From the IMG/VR virus record IMGVR_UViG_3300037493_000871, positions 1,571 through 65,570 of that record: 64,000 bases of DNA, one strand, 5' to 3'. The stretch is from a virus. Taxonomy: Duplodnaviria > Caudoviricetes. The position numbers and the translations under genes are program-made. Positions 44,858-64,000 of the stretch are shown here, piece after piece (the stretch's first letter is position 1; each line of letters begins with the position of its first letter). The notes under the pieces are model-generated. The model was not told the DNA's origin. It was given only the letters and a program-made list of their open reading frames with translations, and searched no databases.

Positions 44858-47596
44858 TTAACAGTCCCCGTACGATTCGCCCATCCCTGATTCACAGGCC
44901 AAAGGCAAGCCTGTCGCCCACTTGGGGTTCCAGCTCATGCACTCCTCCAGATAGGCTTGCGCCTCCTTGGCTTCTTCCTTCTTGGCGATGATGGCGATCG
45001 CATCATGCACAGTCAGCACCACCTTGTACCGCTTGGCTACGCGCAGCATCTGTTCGGCCACCACCTGCCTAGCTACCGCTTGGCATACGTTCTCCACGCA
45101 GTTATGAACTACAAAGGGTTCCGAATGACCTCGGACCATGAAGCGCGTTCTGGGTCCGGCGTTGAGGAGGTCATAGACAGGTTCCGGTGCCAGCGAAACG
45201 CGAGAGTCGATCTCGAAATACCCGTTACCGCATGTGCTTTCCGCAAGTCCACCGGCAGTGACCCCCTGCGGTTGGTCGCTTGTACCGCCATCGACACCCA
45301 TCGGCAGTTTTCCGGGGTATACGACCCGTTGTTGTCCCGTCGATCCAACGTCAACCCCGAAGCGTAAGTTGGCCCCATGTCGGCCCAGAACGCCTCGAAA
45401 GACTGTTGCCATGCTGCGCATACAGTAACCCCACGCGCCCCGTAGTTGTGCCATGCCTGATGTGAGGGCAGTCGGCATCGGTCGCGCATCGACCTCCACA
45501 CCCAATATGCGGGATGTTTGGACATTGCGTGCGTCTGGATTTTTGCCCCCACCATGCACCCGCACGAGGGGTGTCCCCCACGCTTGGCGTACTTCTCCGT
45601 GTCGATCGCTGCCCGTGTTACGCAACCCCCGCACTGGCATTGGAACTTCCACAGCGACCTGCGACCGTCCGACCCCATGTAGTGCAGGGCCGTCAGGTAT
45701 CCGAACTTCTGCCCGGTGTAATCCTTCGCACGCTGATGCATCGCGCCAACCTTTCTCTGTAAGTACTTTGTGGTCCGGCGTCATCCGAACACCGTCTACC
45801 ACGATGGTATGCTTTTCGCCTTGGTATGTCAACCCGCCATGTTGCACCCATTCAACCCCGTCCCAAACTTGATCGTCTTGTCGCACCGATCCGATAGGAA
45901 TCCACCCCCGATGCGTTAGGACTTGAGTATCTCCTGCCAAACATTTGCCTCCATAGATACGCACAGGCAGCCCCTTGGATGTGTACACAAGCTCGCGCTT
46001 GCCCTCGTCGCCAATGTGAGCCCGTAGGCCCGGGTACTGGATGTGCAACCCATTGGGTAGGGTCAAGCCCGCGCCGGGTATTGCGTTCACAATGCCTATT
46101 GCATCGACCTGAATAGACTGGCCCTGCATCAACGCCGTAAGGCCGTTGCCGGCCCGTTGCCAGAACGCTGCGATGTGCCCTGCACTAGACCTGTATGCGT
46201 CAATAATGCGCTTGGCTTCTTCCAGAGTAACTTCAACCCCTGCCTGTGTCTTTAAGAACGCCTTGAGCTTAACGTGCCCAACGCCATAGCCTGCGCCCAG
46301 CACAACCGTCTTGCCCACCTGCCGCTGGCTACCTGCTCCGGTGGTCACCTGCTCCACGGGGATGCCGTAAATCTTGGATGCCATCAGGCTGTACACGTCC
46401 TGCTTGTCCCTGAATGCTTGCAGCAAGTCCTCCTGCCCGGCCAGCCAAGCCAGCACACGGGCCTCAATCTGCGCGGAGTCACAGTCAATCACCACGTAAC
46501 CTTCTGGGGCCCTGATGGCCTTCTTGATCTTGCCAGCGTCTGCGCCGCGTGACGGCAGGTTCTGCAGGTTTACAGAGTCTTGGCCAGACCAGCGACCAGA
46601 ATGGGCCCCGTAGTAACGCAGAGGTACAGGAAACTTACCTCGACCAGACATGCCAATAAAGCGTTGCGTACGAGTCTCTTCAAGTGTTGTCTTGTTTCCA
46701 AGGCGGGCGGCGACAAGCATTTGGACTCGTACATCAGGGTGCTCCATCAACTCTTTGAATGCATCATCGGTTTTGGCAAATGCATAGGCCAGCTTCTTGG
46801 TAGTGGCGCTGATCTTCGTGGGCGGCACAACGCCGTAGTTCTCCAGCACCAAGGCAAACTTGGGGTTTGACATGAGCAGCTTCTTGATGCCATCCATGCC
46901 CTCGCTGAAGATCGTATGCACGTACTCGGGCTCGGCGTCTTTCAGCATGAAGTCCCGCACACTCTCCATCAAGGCTTCCTTGCGGTCTTTGACTTCTTCC
47001 AGATGCGCAACCAGCATGGGTTTGTCTAATATTAGAACGGGGTCGATGAACATGCGCAGCGTCAGGTCAATCAGCTTGAGCTCGGACTTGGGGAACCCAA
47101 GGTTCATGTACTGCATGAACAAGTCGTAAGTCAGGTTCACGTCATTGCAGCAGTACTCACCGTAGCGTTCCAACTCATGCCATGTGAAGTCAGCGTAGTG
47201 CTTGCCCTTGGCGTTGTCCACCTCGTTGCCCTTCACACCAGCCACCATGCGTTCAGCTTGCGCTTTGAGACTGTGCGACCTCTCATGCGGGTACAGCGCA
47301 CGAGACATACCCATAATGTCTACCCACGCCATCGGGTCAACGCCGTAGTGCCACTTCAGCACAGCACCATCGAACGCAGTGTTCTGGCACACCACGATCT
47401 TGTCCGACCAATCAATGCTGGCCAGCACGCGCTCTACGTCAGGCTTAGGCACCCATACGGTTGGGCCGTTGTCGATCTTGTATGCGAACCCAATGGTTTC
47501 CCACTGGGGCCCACGCACGTACTCTTCGGTCGTCAGCTTGGAGAAGCCAAAGTCCTGTGAGTAGTAAGTTTCTAGGTCGATTGTTAGGATGCTCAT
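44858..47596 (-). CDS. family A DNA polymerase interrupted by an intein
   Basis: Exo I DLETY, SGRWS..NLQNLP, motif A DSAQIEAR, motif B R..GK...LG..YG, motif C TVHD. Confidence 0.92.
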   Translation of the reverse strand: MSILTIDLETYYSQDFGFSKLTTEEYVRGPQWETIGFAYKIDNGPTVWVPKPDVERVLASIDWSDKIVVCQNTAFDGAVLKWHYGVDPMAWVDIMGMSRALYPHERSHSLKAQAERMVAGVKGNEVDNAKGKHYADFTWHELERYGEYCCNDVNLTYDLFMQYMNLGFPKSELKLIDLTLRMFIDPVLILDKPMLVAHLEEVKDRKEALMESVRDFMLKDAEPEYVHTIFSEGMDGIKKLLMSNPKFALVLENYGVVPPTKISATTKKLAYAFAKTDDAFKELMEHPDVRVQMLVAARLGNKTTLEETRTQRFIGMSGRGKFPVPLRYYGAHSGRWSGQDSVNLQNLPSRGADAGKIKKAIRAPEGYVVIDCDSAQIEARVLAWLAGQEDLLQAFRDKQDVYSLMASKIYGIPVEQVTTGAGSQRQVGKTVVLGAGYGVGHVKLKAFLKTQAGVEVTLEEAKRIIDAYRSSAGHIAAFWQRAGNGLTALMQGQSIQVDAIGIVNAIPGAGLTLPNGLHIQYPGLRAHIGDEGKRELVYTSKGLPVRIYGGKCLAGDTQVLTHRGWIPIGSVRQDDQVWDGVEWVQHGGLTYQGEKHTIVVDGVRMTPDHKVLTEKGWRDASACEGLHRAEVRIPDGPALHGVGRSQVAVEVPMPVRGLRNTGSDRHGEVRQAWGTPLVRVHGGGKNPDARNVQTSRILGVEVDARPMPTALTSGMAQLRGAWGYCMRSMATVFRGVLGRHGANLRFGVDVGSTGQQRVVYPGKLPMGVDGGTSDQPQGVTAGGLAESTCGNGYFEIDSRVSLAPEPVYDLLNAGPRTRFMVRGHSEPFVVHNCVENVCQAVARQVVAEQMLRVAKRYKVVLTVHDAIAIIAKKEEAKEAQAYLEECMSWNPKWATGLPLACESGMGESYGDC
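45101..45943 (-). mobile_element. intein (281 aa) in DNA polymerase
   Basis: GGK|CLAGDTQV block A, TPDH block B, VYDL block F, VVHN|C block G. Confidence 0.92.
45109..45741 (-). CDS. HNH homing endonuclease overprinted in an alternative frame inside the intein
   Basis: G.KFG.LT, C.CG, SCGC, W.SMR.RC, YGARG..VC..W, TLDR.DNNGSY.PENCRW......N; SD-like AGAAAGG upstream. Confidence 0.85.
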   Translation of the reverse strand: MHQRAKDYTGQKFGYLTALHYMGSDGRRSLWKFQCQCGGCVTRAAIDTEKYAKRGGHPSCGCMVGAKIQTHAMSKHPAYWVWRSMRDRCRLPSHQAWHNYGARGVTVCAAWQQSFEAFWADMGPTYASGLTLDRRDNNGSYTPENCRWVSMAVQATNRRGSLPVDLRKAHAVTGISRSTLAFRWHRNLSMTSSTPDPERASWSEVIRNPL

Positions 47597-48066
47597 TTAT
47601 AGAGATCCCGCGGATTGATGTTGGTAATGCCTGTGCCCGTGACGAAAGAAGCCTGTATCGCAGCGGTCATGGCCTGTTGGGTACCCACCATACTGTTCGC
47701 TATGCTTTTCCCATAATGCCGACTTTGCGTGCTGTATCGCAGTGTCTGCTCTTCCTTCTCGTCATTCGGGCGCATCATGTTGTACACGGTCGTTGCAGTG
47801 AACCGCTCTCGCTTCGCTGCGGTAAACGCTTGCTGCAGTGCCTCGCGCTCGTAAGGGGTAAGAAACCAAAACTCTACGGATTCGTCGGCTACCCGTACTG
47901 CGTTCTCGTCATCTCTGCGCGGCGCAAAATCACGGTCCATCATGCGTTCAAGATACCGAAGCCGTGGGCTGTCGTAGACTTGCGGCGTTTGCCCACTAAT
48001 TGGCCCGAAGAAGTCATCGGGTCTTGTTTCGAGGGCCTCAATAATCATTTCAATTGCTGGGTTCAT
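47593..48066 (-). CDS. hypothetical protein
   Basis: ATGA-coupled on both sides. Confidence 0.7.
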   Translation of the reverse strand: MNPAIEMIIEALETRPDDFFGPISGQTPQVYDSPRLRYLERMMDRDFAPRRDDENAVRVADESVEFWFLTPYEREALQQAFTAAKRERFTATTVYNMMRPNDEKEEQTLRYSTQSRHYGKSIANSMVGTQQAMTAAIQASFVTGTGITNINPRDLYK

Positions 48067-48368
48067 GGTGCTACGTTCTCCGCCATTTTGATGTGAATAA
48101 GGATGTCATTTAGGTTGGCCTCGTTGACGACTAGGGAGACCCCGCCAGCCTTTTTAATGTCTTCAAGGTGTTTGTCTTGCAGTGCAGTTGTCTTGCCCTT
48201 GCCCGCCTTGGCCTCGATCGCAATGAAGTATCCCTTGACGCAGCACAGGAAGTCCGGCACGCCACTGTTGCCAAATGCTGAGCCAATAGGCATAGCGAAG
48301 TACACGCCATGCTCCTTCAAGATCGCCTTGATCTTGGCTTTGACTTTTGCTTCAGGCGTTTGTGCCAT
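48063..48368 (-). CDS. VRR-NUC domain nuclease
   Basis: TPEAKVK, GVPD, IEAKA, T.LQ, AGG. Confidence 0.88.
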   Translation of the reverse strand: MAQTPEAKVKAKIKAILKEHGVYFAMPIGSAFGNSGVPDFLCCVKGYFIAIEAKAGKGKTTALQDKHLEDIKKAGGVSLVVNEANLNDILIHIKMAENVAP

Positions 48369-48609
48369 ATTTGGTTTCCATTTCGATCAGCAGGTCAACT
48401 TCATGCTTGATCTTTTGCAGGTCTTCAAAGCGTTTGCTTGCCGGTTTGTTGCGCCAGCGTGTGATGCGCTTGACGATGCAGCCCTCAAGAAAATTCAAGT
48501 TGTTCGCGGAGATGTACTCCACAGGCTGAATAGGTTTGTCCTTGTAGTGGTTGCCCGCAACCTGCACATCCAGTGCGCTTGCTGAACCTGTGTCTGCTCG
48601 TTCAATCAT
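48352..48609 (-). CDS. DUF3310 / T7 gp1.7-like protein
   Basis: QVAGNHY...IQPVEYI...EGCIVK...EDLQK. Confidence 0.8.
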   Translation of the reverse strand: MIERADTGSASALDVQVAGNHYKDKPIQPVEYISANNLNFLEGCIVKRITRWRNKPASKRFEDLQKIKHEVDLLIEMETKYGTNA

Positions 48610-48902
48610 CGTGTTACCTTTGGGTTAGGGAGGTGAATAATGGACCCTGCATGGATGTTTGCAAGGGGGAGGAGGGAGGTGTGGCCCGTACCGAACTGCT
48701 TGTACTTGAGCCCCTCATCGTCGTCGAGTAGCCCTGCCTTGTGTCGGCTCTTGAAGTGCGGGTCCGTGGCAAAGATGCTAGGGCGGGGGTCTTCTTTCCA
48801 CCGAAACGGTGACAGGGGCGGAGTGGGTTTATCTGAGCGCATCACAAAGCATCCTTTAGAGGGGTCGTATTTAATCATATCCATGACTTGAATGGTTGTC
48901 AT
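48606..48902 (-). CDS. hypothetical protein
   Basis: Coupled ORF. Confidence 0.6.
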   Translation of the reverse strand: MTTIQVMDMIKYDPSKGCFVMRSDKPTPPLSPFRWKEDPRPSIFATDPHFKSRHKAGLLDDDEGLKYKQFGTGHTSLLPLANIHAGSIIHLPNPKVTR

Positions 48903-49111
48903 TGTTGCCTCGCTTCCAACATGGCGTCTGCCATTTCATAAGCAAATACGGACGTGACGCAGGCTTCGTGTGATGTAAGGTCAAGATTTTTATTGCGCTC
49001 CACAAGGCCCTGCATCGCCTTGGCTGCAAAGTAGTCGCGCAGGGTCATGCCAAGGTACATGGGGTCATTGGGAGTCGGGAAGGCCGCACCTCCGACGTTG
49101 TCTTTGCTCAT
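48899..49111 (-). CDS. conserved small phage protein
   Basis: GG.AFP...GMTLRDYFAAKAMQG...AY.MADAML. Confidence 0.8.
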   Translation of the reverse strand: MSKDNVGGAAFPTPNDPMYLGMTLRDYFAAKAMQGLVERNKNLDLTSHEACVTSVFAYEMADAMLEARQQ

Positions 49112-49446
49112 TTCTTCTCCTTCTTTGGTCGTGGTCGTAAGATGGGCGGGGTCTCGACAAGCCACAGTGAGTAGGACTTGGTGCGATGGTCTTTGTACTG
49201 GCGCACAGCATGCAGCTTGGTCAAGCCTTTGTTCTGCATGAAGCGATGCAACGCCTTGCGCACGGCTTGGAACTCGTCGTTGGGTATCTGGAGCGCTTGA
49301 TTGAACTCAAGCAGCTTCTCGAACTTATCGTCATGCGCAGTCTTGCCCTTGATTGACCTGCCGCACACCACCGGGATGGGCACCAGCTTGACAACATCTT
49401 CGCCAGTGAAGGGGTTCACTCGCCCCACAAATTTAGTTACGTTCAT
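49108..49446 (-). CDS. hypothetical protein
   Basis: Coupled ORF. Confidence 0.65.
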   Translation of the reverse strand: MNVTKFVGRVNPFTGEDVVKLVPIPVVCGRSIKGKTAHDDKFEKLLEFNQALQIPNDEFQAVRKALHRFMQNKGLTKLHAVRQYKDHRTKSYSLWLVETPPILRPRPKKEKK

Positions 49447-49754: not shown

Positions 49755-49990
49755 TTCTCGCTCCTTGGGTGTGGTGCATCTTCGGGAGTGTCGATGCACA
49801 TATAAACGGCAGTGAACTGGCCGCGCTTGGGCGCGTTCCAGCGGTCGATGTAAACACCAAACACCTTTGGCATCTGTGTGTACAGGTTAGGCACGTTGAC
49901 CTTGAGCGCCGTAGCGATCTCTTCGATCGTCATGCCGTCCTCTGAGGCTTGCAGCAGCTCACGTATGGCTTGCTGTCGGTTAACGGTCAT
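49751..49990 (-). CDS. winged-HTH-like protein
   Basis: DGMTIEEIATAL...YIDRW. Confidence 0.65.
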   Translation of the reverse strand: MTVNRQQAIRELLQASEDGMTIEEIATALKVNVPNLYTQMPKVFGVYIDRWNAPKRGQFTAVYMCIDTPEDAPHPRSEK

Positions 49991-50763: not shown

Positions 50764-50766
50764 GTG

Positions 50767-51523: not shown

Positions 51524-51726
51524 TTCTTACTCCTCGCCTCGCGGCACAGTTGTTTTATCTCTGCTGAATAATCGGGACTAAACTCGATCAGCGAACAGTC
51601 CATCTTCTTGGCTTCGTGCATCGGTGGGTACATCCAAGCGCATAGGAACAGCACACCGAGGAACATCACCACCATGCACACCACCAAGATGCCATCAATC
51701 AGGCACATCCAAAAAATACTTTTCAT
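51520..51726 (-). CDS. small membrane protein
   Basis: N-terminal hydrophobic helix; DCS..EFSPD. Confidence 0.65.
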   Translation of the reverse strand: MKSIFWMCLIDGILVVCMVVMFLGVLFLCAWMYPPMHEAKKMDCSLIEFSPDYSAEIKQLCREARSKK

Positions 51727-52196
51727 CCCTTCTCTCCTTTAGGCCATCCCAGCTTGCTCAAACCCGCGACCACGTTGGCCAGCGCAGGTAGGTTCTTGGT
51801 GGGCGCTTCGACTGTGGGGAAATACTTCTTGAACTCAGGCAAGCGTGTCTCTAGCATCTTGAGTGTGGTGCAGGCATTGACTGCGTTGTTCAGGTTGTAC
51901 TCGGCGCTGATGCGTGCGTCTTCTTCGTCTTTGAACGGCTTGGTGATTTCCTTGATGGTGTCGTCGGACACATCACCGACGATAAGCTCGCGGTGCCCGT
52001 AGTCATTGATGAAGCTGCCGAAGTACTGTGTGCGCAACGCCAGCGGGGTCTTGTTGTACACCTTGCGCACCTCTGGGCTCATGGCCTTGATGATGGCGGC
52101 TTGTATCGCGTCCTTGCGTTTGATCTTGTCAGGTTTTGGCACATCCTGCATGATGGCGCGAACGATGGCTTGGCGGTCGTATTTAGTAAGTTTCAT
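51723..52196 (-). CDS. hypothetical protein
   Basis: TTLK.L...LPEF.KY.P C-terminal pattern. Confidence 0.7.
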   Translation of the reverse strand: MKLTKYDRQAIVRAIMQDVPKPDKIKRKDAIQAAIIKAMSPEVRKVYNKTPLALRTQYFGSFINDYGHRELIVGDVSDDTIKEITKPFKDEEDARISAEYNLNNAVNACTTLKMLETRLPEFKKYFPTVEAPTKNLPALANVVAGLSKLGWPKGEKG

Positions 52197-52198
52197 GG

Positions 52199-52735
52199 TT
52201 AGGCTCCGAACATTTCTTTGAGCTCGCGGTACAGATCATGGGCTTGATACACGGACAAGTCTTCCAGCATTTTCTCAGGGCTGAAGTCTGACTTGCGAAT
52301 GATGAACTTGGACTTGGCCGGGGCTTCTTCCGTGGGCCGGCGCTGCTGCTCAAGCAAAGTACGCACATCTGGCAAGTTCTTGGCACTGAACGTAGGCTTG
52401 GGCTTGTACTCAATCTTTTTCTTGGTCGGGTCCGGCATTGCAACGTACTCGGGCACAACTGCGTACAGCTGGAACCCATCTCTGCGGGTAAGACCTTTGC
52501 GGCAGAACTGCGAGATCAGGGAGGTGGTAGATGCGACCTTGAATCCCTTGAGTTTTAAGTCTTGGATGACCCCGTTGATGGGCTTGCCCGGATGTTCTTT
52601 GATGTAGTCGAACAAAACACGCGACACATTGTTGGTTACGCGCTTGTCGGTCTTGGTTGGGGTTTGCGTCATAGTAGCCTCTGGCTTATTCCATTCGTTG
52701 AGAAGTTTGGTCATTTCGGTTTTGATGTCAGGCAT
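52199..52735 (-). CDS. winged-HTH-like protein (start uncertain)
   Basis: FDYIKEHPG...TSLISQ..RKGL. Confidence 0.6.
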   Translation of the reverse strand: MPDIKTEMTKLLNEWNKPEATMTQTPTKTDKRVTNNVSRVLFDYIKEHPGKPINGVIQDLKLKGFKVASTTSLISQFCRKGLTRRDGFQLYAVVPEYVAMPDPTKKKIEYKPKPTFSAKNLPDVRTLLEQQRRPTEEAPAKSKFIIRKSDFSPEKMLEDLSVYQAHDLYRELKEMFGA

Positions 52736-52910
52736 GGTCATCTCCAAATAAATCTTGCTGTCTAATATTAGATGGCTCAGGCATGGTGTGAGCCAAGTCC
52801 TCTACCTCGCGGATACGCATTTCAAGGCGCTCGCTTAGGGCTCGGATAAGCCCCGACTGCCCATCGGCATGTCGCAGTAGTTCTTCATCCGTCAGGTGGT
52901 CATACGTCAT
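52728..52910 (-). CDS. small hypothetical protein
   Basis: Y.HLTDEELLR; contains palindrome read as SNIR. Confidence 0.65.
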   Translation of the reverse strand: MTYDHLTDEELLRHADGQSGLIRALSERLEMRIREVEDLAHTMPEPSNIRQQDLFGDDHA

Positions 52911-54128: not shown

Positions 54129-54147
54129 GATGTTCTTTCGTCTAATA

Positions 54148-54390
54148 TTAGATTGGTGTATGGGTTGGTTTCTTGTGCATCTCAAGCATGAGTGCCATGA
54201 AATGTGGGGGGAACACATCGTCGTCGATGTATATCTTGTCGGTGTCCGGGGACGGATTAAGGTGGATGATACGTACGAACCAGCCCTCCTTCTTGGCGCG
54301 TCGGGCGTAGGCCACCAGCTTGTCGCCTTCAAACATGTCCCACATGGGGCCGTGTTGCTTGGTCATTGAGAATTTCCATGTGCGGGTCAT
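54148..54390 (-). CDS. hypothetical protein
   Basis: Stop codon lies inside a palindrome copy. Confidence 0.6.
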   Translation of the reverse strand: MTRTWKFSMTKQHGPMWDMFEGDKLVAYARRAKKEGWFVRIIHLNPSPDTDKIYIDDDVFPPHFMALMLEMHKKPTHTPI

Positions 54391-55474: not shown

Positions 55475-55792
55475 TCAATTCCTTTGTTGCATTCTTTGCA
55501 GTTCAGTGGCCGCCAATATCCGGCCTACTGCCTTTGCTGCTTTGAGCTTGTTGAAGTAGGAAATCTCGTCCCAATCGTTCTCGACGTCATCCCATACCTC
55601 CAACTTGAACGGCCCGTTGTCTTTGTCAAACGATTCGACGCACGCTATGTAGATGCCTCCATCAGCGAAGCTATCCGTAGGCGGGTCTGCGGGAATCGTA
55701 TTCAAGAACCAGCGATATATCTTCTTCTTGCTTGGTGATACGAACACCAGTGATTCCTCAACGGGGCTCCATCGTTTTCTTAGTTCAGCCAT
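55475..55792 (-). CDS. hypothetical protein
   Basis: SD AAGGAGG just after a palindrome copy. Confidence 0.65.
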   Translation of the reverse strand: MAELRKRWSPVEESLVFVSPSKKKIYRWFLNTIPADPPTDSFADGGIYIACVESFDKDNGPFKLEVWDDVENDWDEISYFNKLKAAKAVGRILAATELQRMQQRN

Positions 55793-55812
55793 GCTGACCT
55801 CCTTGTCTAATA

Positions 55813-56982
55813 TTAGACGTCGATGTGAATTGTTGTGCCGAACGGCGCGGACATACCTGCGGTTGTAACTGCCCACATGGTTGGGATATCCGTGTTACCC
55901 CATGAGCCTACATAGCCATCGGTGAACTGCACGATCGCATCGGGCTTGATATTGTTTTTGCGCAAGTGATCGAACAACACCGAACCATCAGTGCCCCCGC
56001 CGCCCTTGATCTTGAGGTCTTGCACAGCGAACTGGCCGTCCTCGAATACCTGCTCACCCGTTACCTCGGTATCCCAATAGATCACACGGCACTTGCTTGG
56101 CTTGATCTGCTCGATGATGGTCGCAATCTCAGAGACGAACCGAGTCATCTCGTCACCACCAAAGATTGAACCTGACGTGTCAAACCCGATCACCAGCTCC
56201 GTCATAGTTGTGCCTACCATTGAGGGCATATAGACGTCATCAGCAAGGAACCTGCGGTTGGGCTTGCGCCATGAGGATTCGTCACGACCTGCACACGTCT
56301 CAGTAATGAAGTCACGCAGCACCTTACGCCAGTCAACCTTAGGCGCAAGCAAGTCACCGAACACACCGTCCTCACCGCCAGAGCCCTTGCCTTGCATCTT
56401 CTTACGCATGATCTCACCCTGACGGATGGCGCGTTGAATCTCGTTGGCTTGTGCTTGTTCTTGAGCAGGGTCACCATTGGCCTCGTTGCCCTCCCAGTCA
56501 TGCTCGTCCATGCCATCGCCATCGCCCTGACCTTGGCCATCTTTTTGCTGCTGCTTGATGTCGTCAAAGATTTGCTTGACCGACCAGCCACGGTACTTAG
56601 GCTCGGGCTTGATACCCACATCAGGCATCTTGATGAACCCCTCACCATCATCGGTGTCATGCAGCGTACCGTTGACAAAGTAGTCCGCAGCTACGTTGGC
56701 CATCATGGCATTCTCTTCGTGCAGTGCTTTCCATACATTCATGTGACGATAGGCTTTGTGCGTTGCCTCATGCAAGACAAGGAAGCGAAGCTGCTGGTCA
56801 GTCTTCATATGCTCTTCAATGAACTTGGGGTTGTATCGCACGTCCCATCCATCGGTCGCAGCCGTTGGTACTGAGTCATCCACGATCACCTTGCCGCAAG
56901 CAAGCACCCCTGAGTAGGCGCAGAACTTCTTGTGCTGCATGATGGCGATGTGTGCCTTCTTGATTCGATCTTGTACGTTCAT
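55813..56982 (-). CDS. metallopeptidase-VWA protein (DUF2201-like)
   Basis: PTAATDG, HEATH, MIDAS DTSGS, GGGGTD, FTDGY. Confidence 0.88.
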   Translation of the reverse strand: MNVQDRIKKAHIAIMQHKKFCAYSGVLACGKVIVDDSVPTAATDGWDVRYNPKFIEEHMKTDQQLRFLVLHEATHKAYRHMNVWKALHEENAMMANVAADYFVNGTLHDTDDGEGFIKMPDVGIKPEPKYRGWSVKQIFDDIKQQQKDGQGQGDGDGMDEHDWEGNEANGDPAQEQAQANEIQRAIRQGEIMRKKMQGKGSGGEDGVFGDLLAPKVDWRKVLRDFITETCAGRDESSWRKPNRRFLADDVYMPSMVGTTMTELVIGFDTSGSIFGGDEMTRFVSEIATIIEQIKPSKCRVIYWDTEVTGEQVFEDGQFAVQDLKIKGGGGTDGSVLFDHLRKNNIKPDAIVQFTDGYVGSWGNTDIPTMWAVTTAGMSAPFGTTIHIDV

Positions 56983-57008
56983 GGTTTTTCCTTAGGTTGT
57001 ATCTAATA

Positions 57009-57287
57009 TTAGAGGAAGGTGTCGCTGTGGCCGTACTGGGCTCTTGGCTTGGGGTTCACGCGGTAGATCAAAAACGCCTCCGCTGCTGTGCGGTCGATCA
57101 TCTTGCGTATTGCTTTCTTGATGCACCTACGCTCCCACCACGTAAGCTCAATGGGGGCCTCGCGTATCTGTGTATCGTCGGTGTCAATCCGCAGTCTTGA
57201 CTTGATGTGCCGTACCTCGCGGCTGCCGAGCATTTCCCATTCGTCCTCGGCCAGTGCCTGTATCACATGCTTGGCGAAATCTCTCAT
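57009..57287 (-). CDS. hypothetical protein
   Basis: Stop codon inside a palindrome copy. Confidence 0.6.
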   Translation of the reverse strand: MRDFAKHVIQALAEDEWEMLGSREVRHIKSRLRIDTDDTQIREAPIELTWWERRCIKKAIRKMIDRTAAEAFLIYRVNPKPRAQYGHSDTFL

Positions 57288-57454: not shown

Positions 57455-57455
57455 G

Positions 57456-57638
57456 TCAGCTCCTTTGGTTAAAAGAAGCCATCCACGCAAACAGCGCGAC
57501 CTTTGCTTCAGCTTTACTCATGTCAAAGCGGGCTTCAAGATAGGGAACAGCTCCCCACATATTGACCTCGCTCGAATCACGCAAGTCAATTAGATAGTCG
57601 TGTATTTCTTGTGTTGTTGGTTTCATTTCATTTCCCAA
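57456..57638 (-). CDS. small hypothetical protein
   Basis: YL..LR.S..NM.GA.PYL...F pattern. Confidence 0.7.
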   Translation of the reverse strand: MGNEMKPTTQEIHDYLIDLRDSSEVNMWGAVPYLEARFDMSKAEAKVALFAWMASFNQRS

Positions 57639-57855
57639 TGTTGATTACGCCCATGATCTTCATGAGCCCAATGATTTCGGCGCGTCTAATATTAGATGCG
57701 ATGGTGGTGCTGTGCTCGTCTAAGTGGGGGGAGTTCAACACGGCGTCTAAATCCCACCGCCAAGGCTTGTACCAAATACGCTGAGGAATGAGCGCGTAGT
57801 ATTGATTGTCGAGGGGCATCATGTACATATCCCCCGATTGAAGTTTCCTTGCCAT
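57628..57855 (-). CDS. small hypothetical protein
   Basis: TAATG coupling to ATPase; contains palindrome read as SNIR. Confidence 0.6.
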   Translation of the reverse strand: MARKLQSGDMYMMPLDNQYYALIPQRIWYKPWRWDLDAVLNSPHLDEHSTTIASNIRRAEIIGLMKIMGVINIGK

Positions 57856-58916: not shown

Positions 58917-58973
58917 GGTTTTTCCTAGGGTTGTTGTGTCTAATATTAGACGGGTGAGATTACTTGTTTAGAC

Positions 58974-59747
58974 TTACGGGTGGATTACGAGGACGTCGGT
59001 ACGAACTACCTCGGTCATGTCTTTGGCGCATTGAGCCATCAAGGACTTCCATGCATCGCGCCAGTCGTCATGCGCTTGAATTTTCATATGCCGGTTGGCA
59101 TAGGCTGGGTACTTCACAAGGCCGACTACGTCGGGCCACTGGTTCACATATACGTCATCACGTACAAGCTTCTCCATCGAAGCGTTGAGCCACGATACCT
59201 CGGGCACCCCGGCAGCTTGATACAGGATAGGGAATGCATCCTTGAAGCCTGACTCGGCTACGTCCCTACGGAACTCGGCGCGTTCATCTTTGTCTGCCCG
59301 CTTGCGCTCGAATGGCACGGGGGTGCCGCGTTGGTTGCCGTATGCGTCGAACATAATGCCGTCGAAGAACATGACCGTCCCGCTAGCTCTCGTGATAGTT
59401 TGTTGGCTCATGCCGAACACACGGCGGCCTCCGACCCACATGCGCGGCCCAGTGAAGAACGACCCGAGTGCTGTGTTCAAGTTCCTGAGCGTTGTGCTTG
59501 TCCACCACCCGCCAGTGCTCAGTCGGACTGTGCCATCCTCGTATGCCGTAAGGATATCTGTGCGGTGCATACGCACCACCATTGCATTGGTTGCCTCGGT
59601 GCCATGTCCGGCCCATGAAGGTCGAGCTACGACCCGGAAGTGTGTCTTGCTTCGCCGTGATGAGTCGGCAGGGGCCTCGCCCTTGTGCGCCCCGCGCTTG
59701 TACATATAGCGCTCCAAGTGCAGCTTGAGTTTGGTGTACGTGTTCAT
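58974..59747 (-). CDS. hypothetical protein
   Basis: H.TDI...DGTV.L.TGGW...TT...N; SD AAGGA. Confidence 0.75.
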   Translation of the reverse strand: MNTYTKLKLHLERYMYKRGAHKGEAPADSSRRSKTHFRVVARPSWAGHGTEATNAMVVRMHRTDILTAYEDGTVRLSTGGWWTSTTLRNLNTALGSFFTGPRMWVGGRRVFGMSQQTITRASGTVMFFDGIMFDAYGNQRGTPVPFERKRADKDERAEFRRDVAESGFKDAFPILYQAAGVPEVSWLNASMEKLVRDDVYVNQWPDVVGLVKYPAYANRHMKIQAHDDWRDAWKSLMAQCAKDMTEVVRTDVLVIHP

Positions 59748-59778
59748 GGTGTTGTTCCTTATGTCTAATATTAGACGG

Positions 59779-60000
59779 TTACGTTCGTTTTGGATTGAGT
59801 TGAGAGAGGGTTGCCCGATCGGTGACCAGCATATAGTTGGACTTGTTCAGGGGCACGGCGCAGTGCTTGACGGCACGCGCTTCGCTTTCACCACACGCTT
59901 GGCATGTGGGTCGTTGCATATGTCGGCGCTTAGGCTCGACTCGCACTGCATAGCAGCACATGCATATGGGTAGATATCGTTCGTTCATGGTCATGCCCAC
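59779..60000 (-). CDS. Zn-finger small protein
   Basis: CxxC...CxxCGE...PLNKSNY...LNPKRT. Confidence 0.75.
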   Translation of the reverse strand: MGMTMNERYLPICMCCYAVRVEPKRRHMQRPTCQACGESEARAVKHCAVPLNKSNYMLVTDRATLSQLNPKRT

Positions 60001-60269
60001 GGGTATCGGGCGAGGAACCCGCTGTGCTGTTGGGGGTACAGCTTGCGTAGTGATTCGCGCACTTCAAGGTAGCTGGCATACGTCCGTGCATAGCTTGCTT
60101 GGGCATCGAGCACCATCTCTTGCGGGGTCTCGGGGTGCCTCATTATTTCGAGCAGCGTGCCGCCCATCTCTTGCGTCTTGGCATAGAGCGCCTTGTAGTA
60201 GTCACGTACTTTGGGCAGCGCCATACGCAGCTTGAGCTGTCGTTCTTTGTCGGTCATTAGGGTCTCCAA
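59991..60269 (-). CDS. hypothetical protein
   Basis: Coupled helical ORF. Confidence 0.55.
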   Translation of the reverse strand: METLMTDKERQLKLRMALPKVRDYYKALYAKTQEMGGTLLEIMRHPETPQEMVLDAQASYARTYASYLEVRESLRKLYPQQHSGFLARYPWA

Positions 60270-60482
60270 TAAAGTAAGTCAAGTGCCACGACGATCAGGC
60301 ACAGGAGGAACACGGCTCGCTCTATGCGTTGCCAAGGGGTTTTGTTCATTTCGTCAGCCTCAGTTTTAGCATGTATGCAATGGTGTACAGCCGTGCCCAT
60401 TCTTCGATGTACTTGGTGTCCTCTACGTCAGCGCGTAGTTCTTCGAGTTCTTGCAGTCGCAGGTTCAGGGTTGTCATGTCGT

Positions 60483-60767
60483 TCATCGTTTGCTCCAGTT
60501 GGTTGTAATCATGATCTTGGCCACGGCCAAGGCGTCGTCTAATATTAGATTGTTGGGCAGCTCTGCGAACGTGCCCCCGTCATAGTTGTTGCCGGTGCTC
60601 ATGTTGATGACGTACTTGTCCCTGTTAAAGCTCAGGTCTTGCAAGTACCCCATATAGAACCCGCCGTACTTGGTGTCGTGGCCGGGGTCATCCTTGTCCA
60701 CGAGAAAGTACATCCCCTCGCGGTCGGTGTCGTCCATGTTGCTCTCTTGTACCCACTCTGGTGTCAT
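60483..60767 (-). CDS. small paralog-family protein 4
   Basis: C-terminal LPNNLILDDALAVAKIMI. Confidence 0.7.
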   Translation of the reverse strand: MTPEWVQESNMDDTDREGMYFLVDKDDPGHDTKYGGFYMGYLQDLSFNRDKYVINMSTGNNYDGGTFAELPNNLILDDALAVAKIMITTNWSKR

Positions 60768-60988
60768 GTCGTGCTCCTGTTTGCCATGATGATTACCTTG
60801 GCTATCTCTTTGGCCTCGGTTAGGGTTAGCTCGCTGGGCAGGATCGTGAAGGACTCGCTCTTACTTAGCCATACCTTGCCGGTGGCCGGGCTCATGCTGC
60901 CTAGTGGGCGAGCGCGAGCATCTTCCATCAAGTACCACAACGAGCCGCTGTACTGCCAGTACACATTGTTTGCATCCTCTGCGTTCAT
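60764..60988 (-). CDS. small paralog-family protein 3
   Basis: C-terminal LPSELTLTEAKEIAKVIIMANR. Confidence 0.7.
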   Translation of the reverse strand: MNAEDANNVYWQYSGSLWYLMEDARARPLGSMSPATGKVWLSKSESFTILPSELTLTEAKEIAKVIIMANRSTT

Positions 60989-60990
60989 TG

Positions 60991-61209
60991 CTATCTCCTA
61001 TGGGCTAGTATCAGCATCCGGGCGGCAGCCAGTGCCTCGTCTAATATTAGATCGTCAGGTAGGAAGGCAATCTCGTTCCCGTTGACTGTGTACACACACC
61101 GCGAGTTACTTCCGAACGCCCCGAAGAACGCATTGGGATGCAAGTCCGCAGGGTCAACGGGGTACAGGTAGTGCAGGTTGTTCCCGCTATCGTCCCAATA
61201 TGTTTCCAT
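60991..61209 (-). CDS. small paralog-family protein 2
   Basis: METYWD...LPDDLILDEALAAARMLILAHRR; SD AGGAG. Confidence 0.75.
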   Translation of the reverse strand: METYWDDSGNNLHYLYPVDPADLHPNAFFGAFGSNSRCVYTVNGNEIAFLPDDLILDEALAAARMLILAHRR

Positions 61210-61211
61210 TG

Positions 61212-61424
61212 CTATCTCCTGTTTGCCATGATGATTACCTTGGCCGCAGCCAGTGCCTCGTCTAATATTAGATCGTCCGGCAGGACTGCTACCGGCTTGC
61301 TGCCGCCGTCCCGCGTATACACTGCTCGGCGGTGGGAGTCGTATGCTCCTATGTAGAGGCTGCGCGGCCCCTTCTCCCACAGGAACAGCAAGCCCACGGT
61401 CGGGGTGTCCCAATATGTTTCCAT
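61212..61424 (-). CDS. small paralog-family protein 1
   Basis: METYWD...LPDDLILDEALAAAKVIIMANRR; SD AAGGAG. Confidence 0.75.
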   Translation of the reverse strand: METYWDTPTVGLLFLWEKGPRSLYIGAYDSHRRAVYTRDGGSKPVAVLPDDLILDEALAAAKVIIMANRR

Positions 61425-61495
61425 TGCTATCTCCTTACTGTGCATTACATAAGGCACGGATTACCCATGCCTTACAAGATAAACAGTTGTTGTTT

Positions 61496-61969
61496 TCACC
61501 CACATCGCTTTGTTTTTGCCGCAAGGTATGCAGCGTATGCCTCCTCTGCCGTATCAAACAGCCCGAGGTACTGCTGTACCCCATCGGCTTGGAAGTCCGC
61601 ACGCCATTGGTTCTTATGGGCGACCACCCCGCGAAACCCGGACTTGTTATCCGCACGGGGGCCATGCTTGTTGAGGTTGTTCTCTACGCGGTTGGACAAT
61701 CTAATATTAGATATGCGGTTGTCATCCCGAACCCCATTGATGTGGTCGAGTTCGCTCTCCGGCCAGTTACCGTACACATAGCACCACGCAAGCCTATGGG
61801 CAAAACATCTATGCCCCTCCACAGTGCAATAAATGTATCCGGCGGAATGCTTGGTGCCCACGGCTGACCCAACGGCGCGGCCTTTCACGCCAACTCGGCG
61901 CGTAAAGATACCCGTGGCTGGGGCGTAATTGAGTAGTTCCCGCAAGCGGGTAGAATCTGGTCTGCTCAT
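61496..61969 (-). CDS. HNH-AP2 homing endonuclease
   Basis: AHRLAW...DHING.RDDNR..N.R; AP2-like N.SG.RGV...W.A...YLG.F.T.EEA..AY. Confidence 0.92.
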   Translation of the reverse strand: MSRPDSTRLRELLNYAPATGIFTRRVGVKGRAVGSAVGTKHSAGYIYCTVEGHRCFAHRLAWCYVYGNWPESELDHINGVRDDNRISNIRLSNRVENNLNKHGPRADNKSGFRGVVAHKNQWRADFQADGVQQYLGLFDTAEEAYAAYLAAKTKRCG

Positions 61970-62038
61970 GTTGTCATGCCTTTACATGATGGTTTGGGAA
62001 GTGACCCCGTTAGCCTGCCAGCTTTCGGGGTTGCGTTT

Positions 62039-62067
62039 ATTTTACATGTTTGTATTTGAAAATGCAA
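62039..62067 (-). promoter_or_regulatory. sigma70-like promoter of HNH-AP2 gene
   Basis: TTGCAT-17 nt-TAAAAT on - strand. Confidence 0.6.
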
Positions 62068-62069
62068 GT

Positions 62070-62568
62070 CATAGCCCACGTAGTAGGCTACAAGCTGGAT
62101 TCTCCAGCCCAATGCCTAAGCATTGGTAGTGTGCGATAAGCGGTGTCAGTGCGGCATATCAGGGTTGGTTACCTTTCCGCAGCTCTAGGGTTCGTCACGG
62201 TTTCCCGGAGAGGAGCCCCGCTATTTAGGCACATAGCGTTCGCATTACATTGTGCTATCTCGTTCGGCATCTGGGGACTGGTGTGTCCCTATACGATGCA
62301 CTACTTGATACACCACACAATGTACCGACTGGATACGGTACGCCTATTCGCCAAAGGAAGTGATCGCATATCTAAGTCGGGGGTGTGTCCCACGGTCTAG
62401 CCTAATTCCTACTAGTGGCTTCTGCATTGATGCAGCGGCGGTTTGTCTGCACGTCAGGCCATCTAATATTAGACAAAGACCTAACGTAACATCCGGGTAT
62501 GTTGTTAAAGAACGTGAGCCGCACAATGGTAAGGCTGGCTATCGAGTCAGAACGATTTCCAACTCGAT
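62070..62568 (-). ncRNA. candidate ~500-nt structured non-coding RNA or leader
   Basis: No convincing ORF; several stem-loops; directly downstream of a strong promoter. Confidence 0.4.
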
Positions 62569-62574
62569 ATAATA

Positions 62575-62603
62575 ATTGTACCACAGATTGCGTTAACTGT
62601 CAA
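62575..62603 (-). promoter_or_regulatory. strong early sigma70 promoter
   Basis: TTGACA-17 nt-TACAAT with extended TG on - strand. Confidence 0.85.
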
Positions 62604-62611
62604 GTGTTTTG

Positions 62612-63412
62612 TCAAGCTTTTGGGGCTTCAAGTGCGGTGTAGAAGGCGGCTATTTTCCGCAGTTCTTCGGGGGTAGCATCATTCTTAATCCGATTTGCCC
62701 GCTGAGATACCATAACAATATTCCCGGGCACGTAGCCTTTGCTGGGGTCAATCCGGTCTAGCGCCATCGCATTATCCGCACCGCCGATAGTACCTGCGTA
62801 CATTAGGGGGATTCCAAGCACGGGGCATACGAGGGGCAACGGGTAAAAGTCGGATAGGGTTAAAGAGAACTCAATACCTTTGGCCAGCGCGTGGTTTCGT
62901 TTGCTGGTAATCCGTGCCCCTAAATATTTTCGCAGTTGGGGGTCAGCCTGTATTGCCCCGTAGTGGCCACCATGCAGCGTGCGAATGCGTTCTGTCATAG
63001 TTGCTGCCGCCGCAGTTTGGCGTATTGTTTGCGGATGCACCGCATGACCTTGCGCGGCTAGTTTATCGGCAATCTGTTTAACTCGCTGTCTACTCAGCCC
63101 ATACAATGCCCCGACCTCCGCAAGAGTCAGGCCCTCGGATAACTTACTGTGCATCGCCAACTCCCGAGGTTTCAGTGGGCGGATACTTTGCGTCTTGTAT
63201 AGCAGTGCTGGGTTGTTCGTCTTCAACGCGGTAATAAGTTTTCGCGGGTTGTACGTTTTGCCCTTGATTTGGAAGTGGGGCTTACCGTTTGAGGTTACTA
63301 CCGGAACCGGGGTGCCGATTGCGTGGCGCATATCGCGCCGGACTTTGCAGTACACAAGCACGCCGGATTCTATGGAAAGGATATCAAGAAGTTCTTTAGG
63401 GGTCAGGAACAT
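62612..63412 (-). CDS. HTH plus HNH-like endonuclease protein
   Basis: Sigma region 4-like TLAEVGALYGLSRQRVKQI; CPVLG...LDRIDPSKGYVPGN.......N..K. Confidence 0.8.
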   Translation of the reverse strand: MFLTPKELLDILSIESGVLVYCKVRRDMRHAIGTPVPVVTSNGKPHFQIKGKTYNPRKLITALKTNNPALLYKTQSIRPLKPRELAMHSKLSEGLTLAEVGALYGLSRQRVKQIADKLAAQGHAVHPQTIRQTAAAATMTERIRTLHGGHYGAIQADPQLRKYLGARITSKRNHALAKGIEFSLTLSDFYPLPLVCPVLGIPLMYAGTIGGADNAMALDRIDPSKGYVPGNIVMVSQRANRIKNDATPEELRKIAAFYTALEAPKA

Positions 63413-63484
63413 GGTAAATCCTTTACAAGTTAAGCGGCCAGTGTGCCACAAAGTCAAGGGGTTGTCTATCTAATATTAGACGGG

Positions 63485-64000
63485 TCAATCATCCGACCAC
63501 TCGCGCAGCAGTCTTTGGCGGACGACTTCCTGTTCTGCGGCCAGCTTGGTCTTTGCTTGGCGTTCGACTTGGGATGGGCGGTTGTTCGTGATGCCGTTGA
63601 TGGCAGCCAGCTGGCTTACCCGTGTGATGGATAGGTTGAAGGTGGCAGCGACTTGCGCATACCGTTTGCCGTCCCGCAGTTGGGCCACAATGGCTTGGTC
63701 GCGCTCCGCGTTGAGCTGTCGCTGTTGGAAACTAGGGCGCTGTTGGGTCAGGCTGTGTTCGGCGGCGATTTGGTTGATACGCACAATGGACAGATCAAAT
63801 TCCTTTGCTATATCAGCACGGCGTTTGCCATCTAATATTAGACGGACAATGGCAGCGTCCCTGTCCTTGTTTATGACTGGTCGGCCTCCGGTTAAGTATG
63901 CTTTTAGGGCGACCGCAGCGGCGGCTTCTAAACCTCCGGGATGTTTGGCAGAGAGGGCCTTGGCGAAGGCATCGGGGAGTTCAAGTACAAGTGTGGTCAT
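63485..64000 (-). CDS. tandem-HTH DNA-binding protein (start at window edge)
   Basis: Two repeats of RD.AIV....DGKR.A.(I/V)A..F.LSI.R..Q.AA. Confidence 0.8.
   Translation of the reverse strand: MTTLVLELPDAFAKALSAKHPGGLEAAAAVALKAYLTGGRPVINKDRDAAIVRLILDGKRRADIAKEFDLSIVRINQIAAEHSLTQQRPSFQQRQLNAERDQAIVAQLRDGKRYAQVAATFNLSITRVSQLAAINGITNNRPSQVERQAKTKLAAEQEVVRQRLLREWSDD

What the first reader, a model, noticed from the sequence alone, without database searches (positions are those of the whole stretch)
47025..63842. Fifteen perfect copies of the palindrome TCTAATATTAGA written into genes, stop codons and intergenic DNA of the early arm only
Seen: exact copies start at 47025, 52761, 54141, 55806, 57002, 57685, 58939, 59764, 60538, 61040, 61261, 61700, 62462, 63469 and 63831. 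Fourteen lie in the last ~11.3 kb and I saw none in the structural arm. The flanks are R...Y in 13 of 15. A given 12-mer is expected about 0.004 times in 64 kb at equal base frequencies. Eight copies are intragenic in two different frames: LILD in Pol A, three paralogs and the tandem-HTH gene, and SNIR in 52728, 57628 and HNH-AP2. They use AT-rich codons (CTA ATA TTA, AGA) unlike the GC-ending bias around them. Three copies supply the TAA stop of a gene (54148, 55813, 57009) just upstream of the next RBS. Inference: selection acts on the DNA site rather than the protein. It may be an arm-wide operator/roadblock array for a dimeric protein (analogous to mycobacteriophage L5 stoperators, which are asymmetric), a protective or decoy site on early DNA, or a recombination site for gene cassettes.
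Basis: partly seen in the sequence, partly recalled or inferred. Interest (0 to 1): 0.88.

Follow-up and report, generated by a model that had tools for sequence, protein, structure and literature searches.

The report
Palindromic operator array in phage early arm
An uncultured freshwater phage carries 15 identical copies of a 12-base palindrome across its early genes, and related phages keep their own versions at the same gene junctions, so it is most likely a set of docking sites for a phage-made regulatory protein.

Summary
All 15 exact TCTAATATTAGA copies are at the stated places, none was seen in 100 shuffles, and none lies outside the leftward early arm of the 65,570-bp record.

It is a family trait. 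Relatives carry 11-17 copies of TCTAA-N2-TTAGA, TCTAA-N3-TTAGA, TTTTAA-N2-TTAAAA, TCTTAA-N2-TTAAGA or TTATAA-N2-TTATAA, also only in the early arm and often at the same gene junctions. The shared core is TAA-NN-TTA, and the outer bases change symmetrically between lineages.

Selection acts on the DNA. Pol A orthologs read PVLELDK in common codons. This phage reads PVLILDK in rare codons, which creates the site.

Hairpin, recombinase and plain promoter readings fit poorly.

Best reading: operators for a symmetric phage-encoded DNA-binding dimer that damps or blocks early transcription. The most likely reader is the HTH protein 63485-64000; 7 of 7 distinct contigs encoding its close homologs carry the same 12-mer. 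Binding and effect are untested.

This scan already noted the same feature on sister genomes. The closest published analogues are the Cluster O dyad repeats and the Cluster A stoperators.

The parts
47025..47036 (.). Palindrome copy inside Pol A (codons 187-191, VLILD)
   Evidence: Orthologs read LELD/LVLD in common codons, so this site is a lineage-specific gain.
52761..52772 (.). Copy in the 3' end of gene 52728-52910 (SNIR), 25 nt upstream of the ATG at 52735
   Evidence: G001 and G005 carry their own motif at the 3' end of the homologous gene.
54141..54152 (.). Copy that supplies the TAA stop of 54148-54390, 12 nt upstream of the next ATG
55806..55817 (.). Copy that supplies the TAA stop of the VWA/DUF2201 gene; it abuts AAGGAGG, 13 nt before the ATG at 55792
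57002..57013 (.). Copy that supplies the TAA stop of 57009-57287, 19 nt upstream of the VWA/DUF2201 ATG
   Evidence: A site lies upstream of this ortholog in 9 of 16 sources.
57685..57696 (.). Copy inside small gene 57628-57822 (SNIR)
   Evidence: The G001 ortholog has TCTAAGGTTAGA at the same place.
58939..58950 (.). Intergenic copy 22 nt upstream of the MoxR-like AAA gene ATG
   Evidence: A site lies upstream of this ortholog in 10 of 16 sources.
59764..59775 (.). Intergenic copy 3 nt after a stop and 16 nt upstream of the ATG at 59747
   Evidence: A site lies upstream of this ortholog in 11 of 16 sources.
60538..60549 (.). Copy in paralog 60483-60767 (LILD)
   Evidence: Its flanks are shared with 61040 and 61261, so these three are not independent.
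61040..61051 (.). Copy in paralog 60991-61209 (LILD)
61261..61272 (.). Copy in paralog 61212-61424 (LILD)
61700..61711 (.). Copy inside the HNH-AP2 gene 61496-61969 (SNIR)
62462..62473 (.). Copy in the long non-coding leader, about 110 nt downstream of the promoter TTGACA-17-TACAAT
   Evidence: L110 has a copy at the same distance from its 12-of-12 promoter.
63469..63480 (.). Intergenic copy 4 nt after the stop of the HTH gene and 56 nt before the ATG at 63412
   Evidence: A weak promoter-like TTGACT-18-TTAACT follows, but the scan did not flag it.
63831..63842 (.). Copy inside the candidate reader gene (RLILDG)
43976..43987 (.). Two-mismatch copy TCTAAGATTAGC inside gene 43886-44347
   Evidence: G001 has an intact site at about residue 121 of the ortholog, the same place. 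It looks like a decayed or weak orthologous site.
63485..64000 (-). Candidate reader: 171-aa protein with two LuxR/KorA-like HTH repeats
62612..63412 (-). HTH plus HNH/EndoVII-like nuclease fusion, absent at this place in L110
   Evidence: Its HTH resembles the small HTH proteins that sit inside the arrays of G002-G004.
62575..62603 (-). Near-consensus sigma-70-type promoter TTGACA-17-TACAAT that reads into the array
   Evidence: 11 of 12 matches.

Best explanation
The 12-mers are operators: double-stranded DNA sites for a symmetric, phage-encoded DNA-binding dimer. The sites are spread along the early transcription unit, densest near its start. Half of them sit in the few bases between a stop codon and the next ribosome-binding site; the rest are written into coding sequence.

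The most likely reader is the second early gene product (63485-64000). It is a fast-evolving protein with LuxR/KorA-like helix-turn-helix domains, and its own gene contains one site and is followed by another.

The most likely effect is negative. The host polymerase starts at strong early promoters.

What is shown: the sites exist, are under selection as DNA, are conserved in position, and change in step within each lineage. What is inferred: that a protein binds them, which protein it is, and the sign of the effect.
For: 1. Real and confined to the arm. G000 has 15 copies against 0.00 expected, all in the early arm. The same holds in 5 of 5 complete relatives: 17, 11, 11 and 11 copies of TCTAA-N2/3-TTAGA and 13 of TTTAA-N2-TTAAA. 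The backwards-read control pattern found none, and no copy lies outside the arm.

2. Dimer-type symmetry. The core TAA-NN-TTA never varies. The outer bases differ between lineages but always symmetrically (TCTAA, TTTAA, CTTAA, TATAA; up to 20-bp palindromes). The centre is free in most relatives, and asymmetric centres occur in both orientations within one arm.

3. Not a hairpin. The one unconserved position inside the 20-bp palindromes is complementary in only 7 of 49 sites. RNA folds of the 15 sites are weak, -0.8 to -8.8 kcal/mol.

4. Sites stay put while their sequence class changes. A site lies upstream of the 243-aa gene in 11 of 16 sources, of MoxR in 10 of 16 and of the VWA gene in 9 of 16.

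5. Selection is on the DNA. This is shown by the Pol A site, by rare codons with P(CTA ATA TTA | LIL) = 2.8e-4, and by a site written into residues 89-91 of MoxR in 4 relatives (that this stretch, LLMLDE, is the Walker B box is my own reading).

6. Junction bias. Of 75 sites in six genomes, 38 have an RBS plus a start within 35 nt downstream, against about 11 for random positions in the same arms.

7. Reader. It is the only recognisable DNA-binding family near the arm start in this clade. Its Pfam matches are HTH_7 in 16 of 16 members, KORA in 10 of 16 and GerE in 10 of 16. It diverges to 25-39% identity where MoxR stays at 70-82%. All 7 distinct contigs that encode close homologs carry the exact 12-mer, 2-7 copies each. 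L108/L109, with MoxR only 69-70% identical, share both the RINQI helix and the TA-centred 12-mer.

8. Position relative to promoters. The strongest promoter has a site about 110 nt downstream in its leader, here and in L110.
Against: No binding, expression or phenotype data exist. The host is unknown and no RNA run was listed.

Covariation between reader and motif is only partial. L098 and L100 share CTTAA sites with readers only 41% identical. L098 and L107 have different sites with readers 55% identical. Nearly the same recognition helix, SEIR[VI]HQI, goes with CTTAA, TATAA and TTCTAA.

Another fast-evolving protein tracks the half-site class better: the roughly 200-aa first early gene product, which has no known family or fold. 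Within the CTTAA class it is 91-96% identical, and the TCTAA group forms a cluster. The copy in this genome, however, is an outlier at 23-38% to all others.

The strongest promoters are not overlapped by a site, so classical occlusion does not apply there.

The phage has no integrase, so a lysogeny-type silencing role like that of stoperators is unlikely.

Three of the 15 copies are in paralogs and are not independent.
Confidence: 0.6

Rival explanations
1. The motif is a phage-specific promoter element. Its core TAA-NN-T serves as a -10-like TANNNT box, read by host polymerase redirected by a phage factor, possibly the fast-evolving first early gene product. Most early genes would then have their own start.
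For: The core fits TANNNT on both strands. Half of the sites lie just upstream of genes. Some starts are only 2-5 nt after the motif, which would suit leaderless transcripts. The first early gene product tracks the half-site class. From a search listing and the start of its abstract only: intergenic repeats of halovirus HF2 carry promoters.
Against: Perfect dyad symmetry, with symmetric lineage changes, is not expected of a promoter. Asymmetric centres point both ways. In G002 and G005 the ribosome-binding site lies inside or abuts the motif, so those mRNAs must start upstream. Sites also lie deep inside Pol A and MoxR. No -35-like flank is conserved. The first gene product matches no sigma or other fold convincingly: best Foldseek E 2.0, best Z 6.4.
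Confidence: 0.12
2. The sites serve another DNA transaction of the early arm: initiator or organiser binding at an origin, site-specific nicking by one of the phage HNH nucleases, or binding of a host nucleoid protein.
For: Relatives have 3-4 copies at about 200-240-bp spacing in the non-coding arm start. This genome encodes an HTH-HNH fusion and an HNH-AP2 protein next to the array. The motif is AT-rich in a 55% GC genome.
Against: Sites spread over 11-17 kb at gene junctions do not look like an origin. Lineage-specific symmetric changes argue against a conserved host factor. The reads laid showed no pile-up of molecule ends, but they were contigs and cannot show nicks.
Confidence: 0.1
3. The sites are recombination junctions that shuffle early gene cassettes, in the manner of integron attC cores or T4 promoter-stem-loop cassettes.
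For: Three copies overlap stop codons and six precede the next gene, so genes look like cassettes. The CG-centred forms in relatives, GTCTAAC-GTTAGAC, fit the attC inverse-core and core patterns as I recall them. Of 294 BLAST segment ends, 60 fall within 15 nt of a site, against 14.3 at random. One metagenome contig replaces 57455-57855 with 26 bases that hold a motif.
Against: The genome has no tyrosine or serine recombinase (the positive controls worked). The excess of segment ends follows simply from sites lying at gene boundaries. The same junctions keep a site across motif classes. Centres differ within one genome. This genome's ATTAGAY does not fit GTTRRRY. The Cluster O authors also saw few or no rearrangements at their repeats.
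Confidence: 0.07
4. The element acts in the mRNA, as a small hairpin or sequence tag next to the ribosome-binding site that is read by a translational repressor or an endoribonuclease.
For: Sites lie 2-30 nt upstream of start codons and sometimes overlap the ribosome-binding site.
Against: The hairpins are 4-5 bp and weak. The internal unconserved position is not kept complementary, 7 of 49. Flanks are R...Y but complementary in only 4 of 15. Exact two-fold symmetry of a conserved sequence is what a DNA-binding dimer needs, not an RNA tag. No Rfam family matches; the one sub-threshold hit lies elsewhere.
Confidence: 0.06

Closest known systems
17-bp dyad repeats of Cluster O mycobacteriophages (TGTTCGG-N3-CCGAACA; PMC4351075, passages read)
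   Same: Both have invariant inverted half-sites with a variable centre, present tens of times. About a third lie inside genes and they are denser toward one end. Neither phage has an integrase. The Cluster O authors predict a dimeric DNA-binding protein, and the function is unknown.
   Different: The sequence, host and phage group are unrelated. The Cluster O repeats occur throughout the genome and are described as not closely linked to translation starts. Here the sites are confined to the early arm and half sit 12-25 nt before a start. Here the half-sites also change between sister lineages at the same junctions.
[quoted passage not shown]
   Same: Both have many copies of one short site, mostly in short intergenic gaps of long operons. 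In Cluster A the sites are proposed to stop elongating polymerase rather than block initiation.
   Different: Stoperators are asymmetric, 13-14 bp, in one orientation relative to transcription, spread over the whole genome, and bound by the immunity repressor of a temperate phage. Here the sites are palindromic with no fixed orientation, confined to the early arm, and the phage has no integrase.
KorA/KorB global operators of IncP plasmid RK2 (operator details recalled, from no call)
   Same: In both, several 12-13-bp palindromes are scattered over a mobile element and read by a small HTH dimer, some far from any promoter. The candidate reader family gives weak Pfam KORA matches: 10 of 16 members, best 4.1e-6, and 0.0029 for this genome's copy, which is below the curated cut-off.
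   Different: The half-site sequence differs. One is a plasmid, the other a lytic-type phage. The Pfam similarity is limited to the HTH.
Aca-type autoregulation of immediate-early or anti-defence genes (PMC11065993, abstract and section 6 read)
   Same: In both, a shared regulatory sequence precedes many small, fast-evolving early genes, and an early-made DNA-binding protein is thought to shut them off.
   Different: In those viruses the shared sequence is a whole promoter in front of single genes. Here it is a bare 12-bp palindrome, mostly without a promoter and inside a polycistronic arm.

Membership tests
Cluster A stoperators | Asymmetric 13-14-bp site | tested here: not met
   The site is a perfect 12-bp palindrome. 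Relatives have symmetric half-sites.
Cluster A stoperators | One orientation with respect to transcription | tested here: not met
   This genome's site has no orientation. In relatives, asymmetric centres occur both ways within one arm, for example GG and CC, or TC and GA, in G001.
Cluster A stoperators | Bound by the immunity repressor of a temperate phage | not testable with these tools
   No binding data exist. No integrase or resolvase is present in the genome.
Cluster O dyad repeats | Invariant inverted repeat, variable centre, many copies, partly intragenic | tested here: met
   This is a likeness of kind only. The sequence TGTTCGG-N3-CCGAACA is not shared, and the phages are unrelated (one search shows no close isolate).
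Integron attC sites | An integron-type tyrosine recombinase is encoded | tested here: not met
   PF00589 gave 0 matches in the genome, while the controls matched in 14 of 14.
Integron attC sites | Core GTTRRRY and inverse core RYYYAAC, separated by an imperfect palindrome of tens of bases (feature recalled) | tested here: not met
   This genome reads ATTAGAY and RTCTAAT, with the two halves directly abutting. Only the CG-centred relatives fit the core letters.
LuxR/GerE-type HTH (candidate reader) | Match to the family profile or fold | tested here: inconclusive
   Pfam GerE E 0.023 for this genome's protein, below the cut-off; 10 of 16 members match weakly. The PDB profile's best hit is EsrB at E 0.31. 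Foldseek gave no row at E <= 1e-3; the top rows are RcsB, EvgA, LiaR, GerE and NarL over about 38-94 columns.
KorA (TrfB) repressors (candidate reader) | Match to PF16509 above the curated cut-off | tested here: inconclusive
   This genome's protein scores 18.2 bits against a cut-off of 26.7. Ten of 16 homologs match, best E 4.1e-6.
Ribbon-helix-helix N-terminal domain (candidate reader) | Strand-helix-helix fold that dimerises | tested here: inconclusive
   The idea rests only on the sequence pattern and on helices 10-19 and 24-36 in a low-confidence part of the model. No RHH family appears in Pfam.

The most novel reading that the evidence does not exclude
Each lineage of these lytic-type freshwater phages has a private address code: 10-17 operators plus a fast-evolving reader, rewritten in step. 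That would create specificity groups which decide the outcome when related phages meet in one cell.

In this genome a second HTH of the type found in the CG-centred clade is fused to an HNH nuclease (62612-63412). It could be a weapon that cuts a rival's operator array while sparing the phage's own TA-centred sites.
Probability: 0.1. Interest if true: 0.85.

Novelty: new variant of a known kind. Interest (0 to 1): 0.55.

Why it matters
Multi-copy operators that silence or pace a whole phage arm are known from a few cultured actinobacteriophages.

Here the same logic appears in an abundant, uncultured freshwater phage group. It comes with a natural experiment. Sister phages keep the sites at the same junctions but have switched the half-site letters symmetrically, and have even changed Pol A and MoxR residues to host a site.

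That gives a ready-made system for studying how a regulator and a dozen or more of its sites change specificity together. It also gives a simple sequence mark for finding the early genes, likely host-takeover and anti-defence genes, in metagenomic phage contigs.

The function is still untested.

Tried and rejected
Close isolates. Megablast of 12 kb against phage records found nothing. The best tblastn hits for Pol A were 29-34% identical: APSE, KPP25 and Rhizobium phages.

Host. A genome-contig scan with MoxR found no relative. The scan with the SNF2 helicase found 19 MAG contigs from many phyla at 50-59% identity. They are probably mis-binned phage pieces, with no array in the parts fetched. 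No host can be named.

Expression. No RNA holder was listed. The four runs laid were contigs and showed no pile-up of ends; nothing decisive came of it.

Dimer test.

Folds. The first early gene product gave no Foldseek match and only generic helical rows, Z <= 6.4, in the wide search. Pfam and PHROGs gave nothing for it.

Rfam. Only a sub-threshold fluoride-riboswitch row at 56224-56279, 22.5 bits against a gathering score of 34.

Breakpoints. BLAST segment ends cluster at sites. I reject this as evidence for recombination because sites lie at gene boundaries. The Pol A ends there are an artefact of where I cut the query.

Reader covariation.

Literature. Searches for stoperator / palindromic / phage, for bacteriophage / inverted repeat / early genes / intergenic / ribbon-helix-helix, for stoperator / repressor / coevol, and for five motif strings (two unrelated primer hits) found no description of this array. 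Supplements were not opened. The phiC31 repeats, RK2 operator sequences, NarL 7-2-7 sites, T4 promoter-stem-loop cassettes and attC core letters are recalled and come from no call.

Full report
**Observation.** The 12-mer TCTAATATTAGA occurs 15 times at exactly the stated coordinates. One hundred dinucleotide-preserving shuffles gave none. There is no one-mismatch copy and a single two-mismatch copy at 43976. The window is bases 1571-65570 of a 65,570-base virus record, and the remaining 1,570 bases hold no copy. All copies lie in the arm whose genes run on the minus strand. Spacing grows with distance from the arm's start: 362, 1007, 762, 439, 221, 502, 774, 825, 1254, 683, 1196, 1665, 1380 and 5736 bases.

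- Six copies lie 12-25 nt upstream of an ATG, just before the ribosome-binding site: 52761, 54141, 55806, 57002, 58939 and 59764.
- Three of these supply the TAA stop of the preceding gene.
- Eight copies are inside genes, in two frames.
- The three in paralogous small genes share their flanks and count as one event.

**A family trait.** Pol A relatives at 62-82% identity lack the exact 12-mer within 10 kb. Five complete relatives do have arrays of their own:

| Record | Copies | Motif |
|---|---|---|
| G001 | 17 | TCTAA-N2-TTAGA |
| G002 | 11 | TCTAA-N2-TTAGA |
| G004 | 11 | TCTAA-N2-TTAGA |
| G003 | 11 | TCTAA-N3-TTAGA |
| G005 | 13 | TTTAA-N2-TTAAA |

All are confined to the same arm. Loci found through the MoxR-like gene add further classes:

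- TCTTAA-N2-TTAAGA
- TTATAA-N2-TTATAA
- TTCTAA-N2-TTAGAA
- L108/L109, two contigs with MoxR only 69-70% identical, which carry this genome's exact TA-centred 12-mer 9-11 times

The shared core is TAA-NN-TTA. The outer positions differ between lineages but always symmetrically, and in some classes the palindrome extends to 20 bp.

**Sites are old; their letters move.** The same junctions keep a site across motif classes. A site lies upstream of the 243-aa gene in 11 of 16 sources, upstream of MoxR in 10 of 16, and upstream of the VWA/DUF2201 gene in 9 of 16. Four relatives have a site at residues 89-91 inside MoxR. That stretch reads LLMLDE, and I take it for the Walker B box.

The site near the 3' end of gene 52728-52910 reads TCTAATATTAGA here. 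The homologous genes of G001 and G005 end with TCTAAGCTTAGA and TTTAAGGTTAAA (the stricter table did not score these two). The two-mismatch copy at 43976 sits where G001 has an intact site.

**Selection on DNA.** The motif's codons are rare in this genome: CTA 6.1% and TTA 5.1% of Leu, ATA 9.1% of Ile, AGA 4.8% of Arg. The chance of CTA-ATA-TTA given L-I-L is 2.8e-4. In Pol A, 9 of 10 aligned orthologs read LELD or LVLD and the tenth reads LELN, all in other codons, mostly CTG/GAG. This phage reads L-I-L-D as CTA ATA TTA GAC, which is an amino-acid change plus rare codons that together create the site. At the site shared with G001 in the small gene 57628-57822, the half-sites are kept while the centre changes (TA here, GG there), and with it the encoded residues.

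**What the form excludes.**

- Hairpins are weak, -0.8 to -8.8 kcal/mol.
- Inside the 20-bp palindromes of relatives, the one unconserved position is complementary in only 7 of 49 sites, while its neighbours are conserved. The duplex is therefore read, not a stem.
- Asymmetric centres occur in both orientations within one arm.
- The genome encodes no tyrosine or serine recombinase, and the control genomes matched.
- In G002 and G005 the ribosome-binding site lies within or abuts the motif, so those messages start upstream.
- No -35-like flank is conserved.

**Promoters.** The strongest sigma-70-type promoter of the arm is TTGACA-17-TACAAT at 62603-62575, with 11 of 12 matches. It has no overlapping site, but it has one about 110 nt downstream in a long non-coding leader. 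The relative L110 has the same arrangement behind a 12-of-12 promoter.

This record's two ends align to L110 on either side of 364 bases that hold three of those sites. The record is therefore cut there, and 15 is a lower bound.

**Who reads the sites.** The protein of 63485-64000 has two HTH repeats. Its Pfam matches are weak:

| Pfam family | Members matched |
|---|---|
| HTH_7 | 16 of 16 |
| HTH_28 | 15 of 16 |
| KORA | 10 of 16 |
| GerE | 10 of 16 |

The copy in this genome is below every cut-off. The AlphaFold model has mean pLDDT 74.5. Foldseek gives only weak LuxR/NarL/GerE rows.

Homologs with one or two HTH repeats exist. A divergent member sits near the arm start in nearly all clade members. 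It evolves far faster than its neighbours: 25-39% identity where MoxR is 70-82%. All 7 distinct contigs encoding close homologs carry the exact 12-mer. L108/L109 share both the helix R-I-N-Q-I and the TA centre.

Against this, reader similarity does not track motif class in the CTTAA, TATAA and TTCTAA group. The first early gene product, about 200 aa with no family or fold match, tracks the half-site class better, although this genome's copy is an outlier. I therefore hold the HTH protein as the likelier reader, at roughly even odds, and the first gene product as the alternative.

**Mechanism proposed.** Host polymerase starts at strong early promoters. Bound dimers then impede polymerase along the arm and at its own gene, turning early expression down.

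This is inferred from layout and from the published analogues. The Cluster A stoperators are proposed to terminate transcription. For the Cluster O dyad repeats, the authors predict a dimeric binder acting on something other than initiation. An activating or organising role is not excluded.

**Comparison and novelty.** The array works like a stoperator or Cluster O array, or like the KorA/KorB operator sets of IncP plasmids (recalled). It is not a member of any of these by sequence, and it fails the stoperator features of asymmetry and orientation.

I found no publication of it. The same scan had already noted it on sister genomes, one of them followed up with the same reading.

I rate it a new variant of a known kind. 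It is of moderate interest because of the in-place, symmetric recoding of a dozen or more sites between sister lineages.

Noticed in passing
window 44858-47596: Pol A is 912 aa here but about 630 aa in relatives; G001's ORF is 18867-20759. I did not test this.
   Followed up: no
window 62070-62603: A long non-coding stretch lies behind the near-consensus promoter. DNA similarity to G001 (964-1168) and G005 (39548-39856) covers it, including their own motif copies. No Rfam family matches. It may be a conserved leader or a small RNA.
   Followed up: partly
It looks like a mobile nuclease insertion that brought or created the copy at 63469.
   Followed up: partly
record ends (window 64000 and record base 1, outside the window): The record ends exactly at the ATG of the HTH gene and begins in an AT-rich stretch with a (CT)n run. 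Both ends align to L110 around a 364-base stretch that this record lacks. This is either an assembly break or true ends inside the arm-start region.
   Followed up: partly
L089:338-949 (record bases 338-949, minus strand, outside the window): The first early gene product is conserved in position in all relatives. It matches no Pfam, PHROG or known fold, evolves fast, and tracks the half-site class of the array better than the HTH protein does, except in this genome.
   Followed up: yes
G003 near 19960 and G004 near 44180 (L077/L083): The flank just upstream of the Pol A site reads like the 5' part of a tRNA gene on the opposite strand. I did not run the tRNA tool on it.
   Followed up: no
window 57455-57855: One metagenome contig (run X7) replaces these 400 bases, which hold two small genes, with 26 bases containing TCTAAGATTAGA (table 5c). 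This is a gene-content difference next to a motif copy in a relative.
   Followed up: no
window 51723-52196: A weak but above-cut-off Pfam match to Nmad5, a nucleotide-modification-associated domain (E 6.8e-8), hints at DNA modification genes in the early arm.
   Followed up: no
window 56224-56279: A sub-threshold Rfam row for the fluoride riboswitch lies inside the VWA gene (22.5 bits against 34, E 0.019). It is most likely chance.
   Followed up: no
window 30159-37397: A 2,412-aa structural-arm protein has an LPD38 domain, a large polyvalent-protein-associated domain (E 3.1e-29). No RNA polymerase domain was seen.
   Followed up: no
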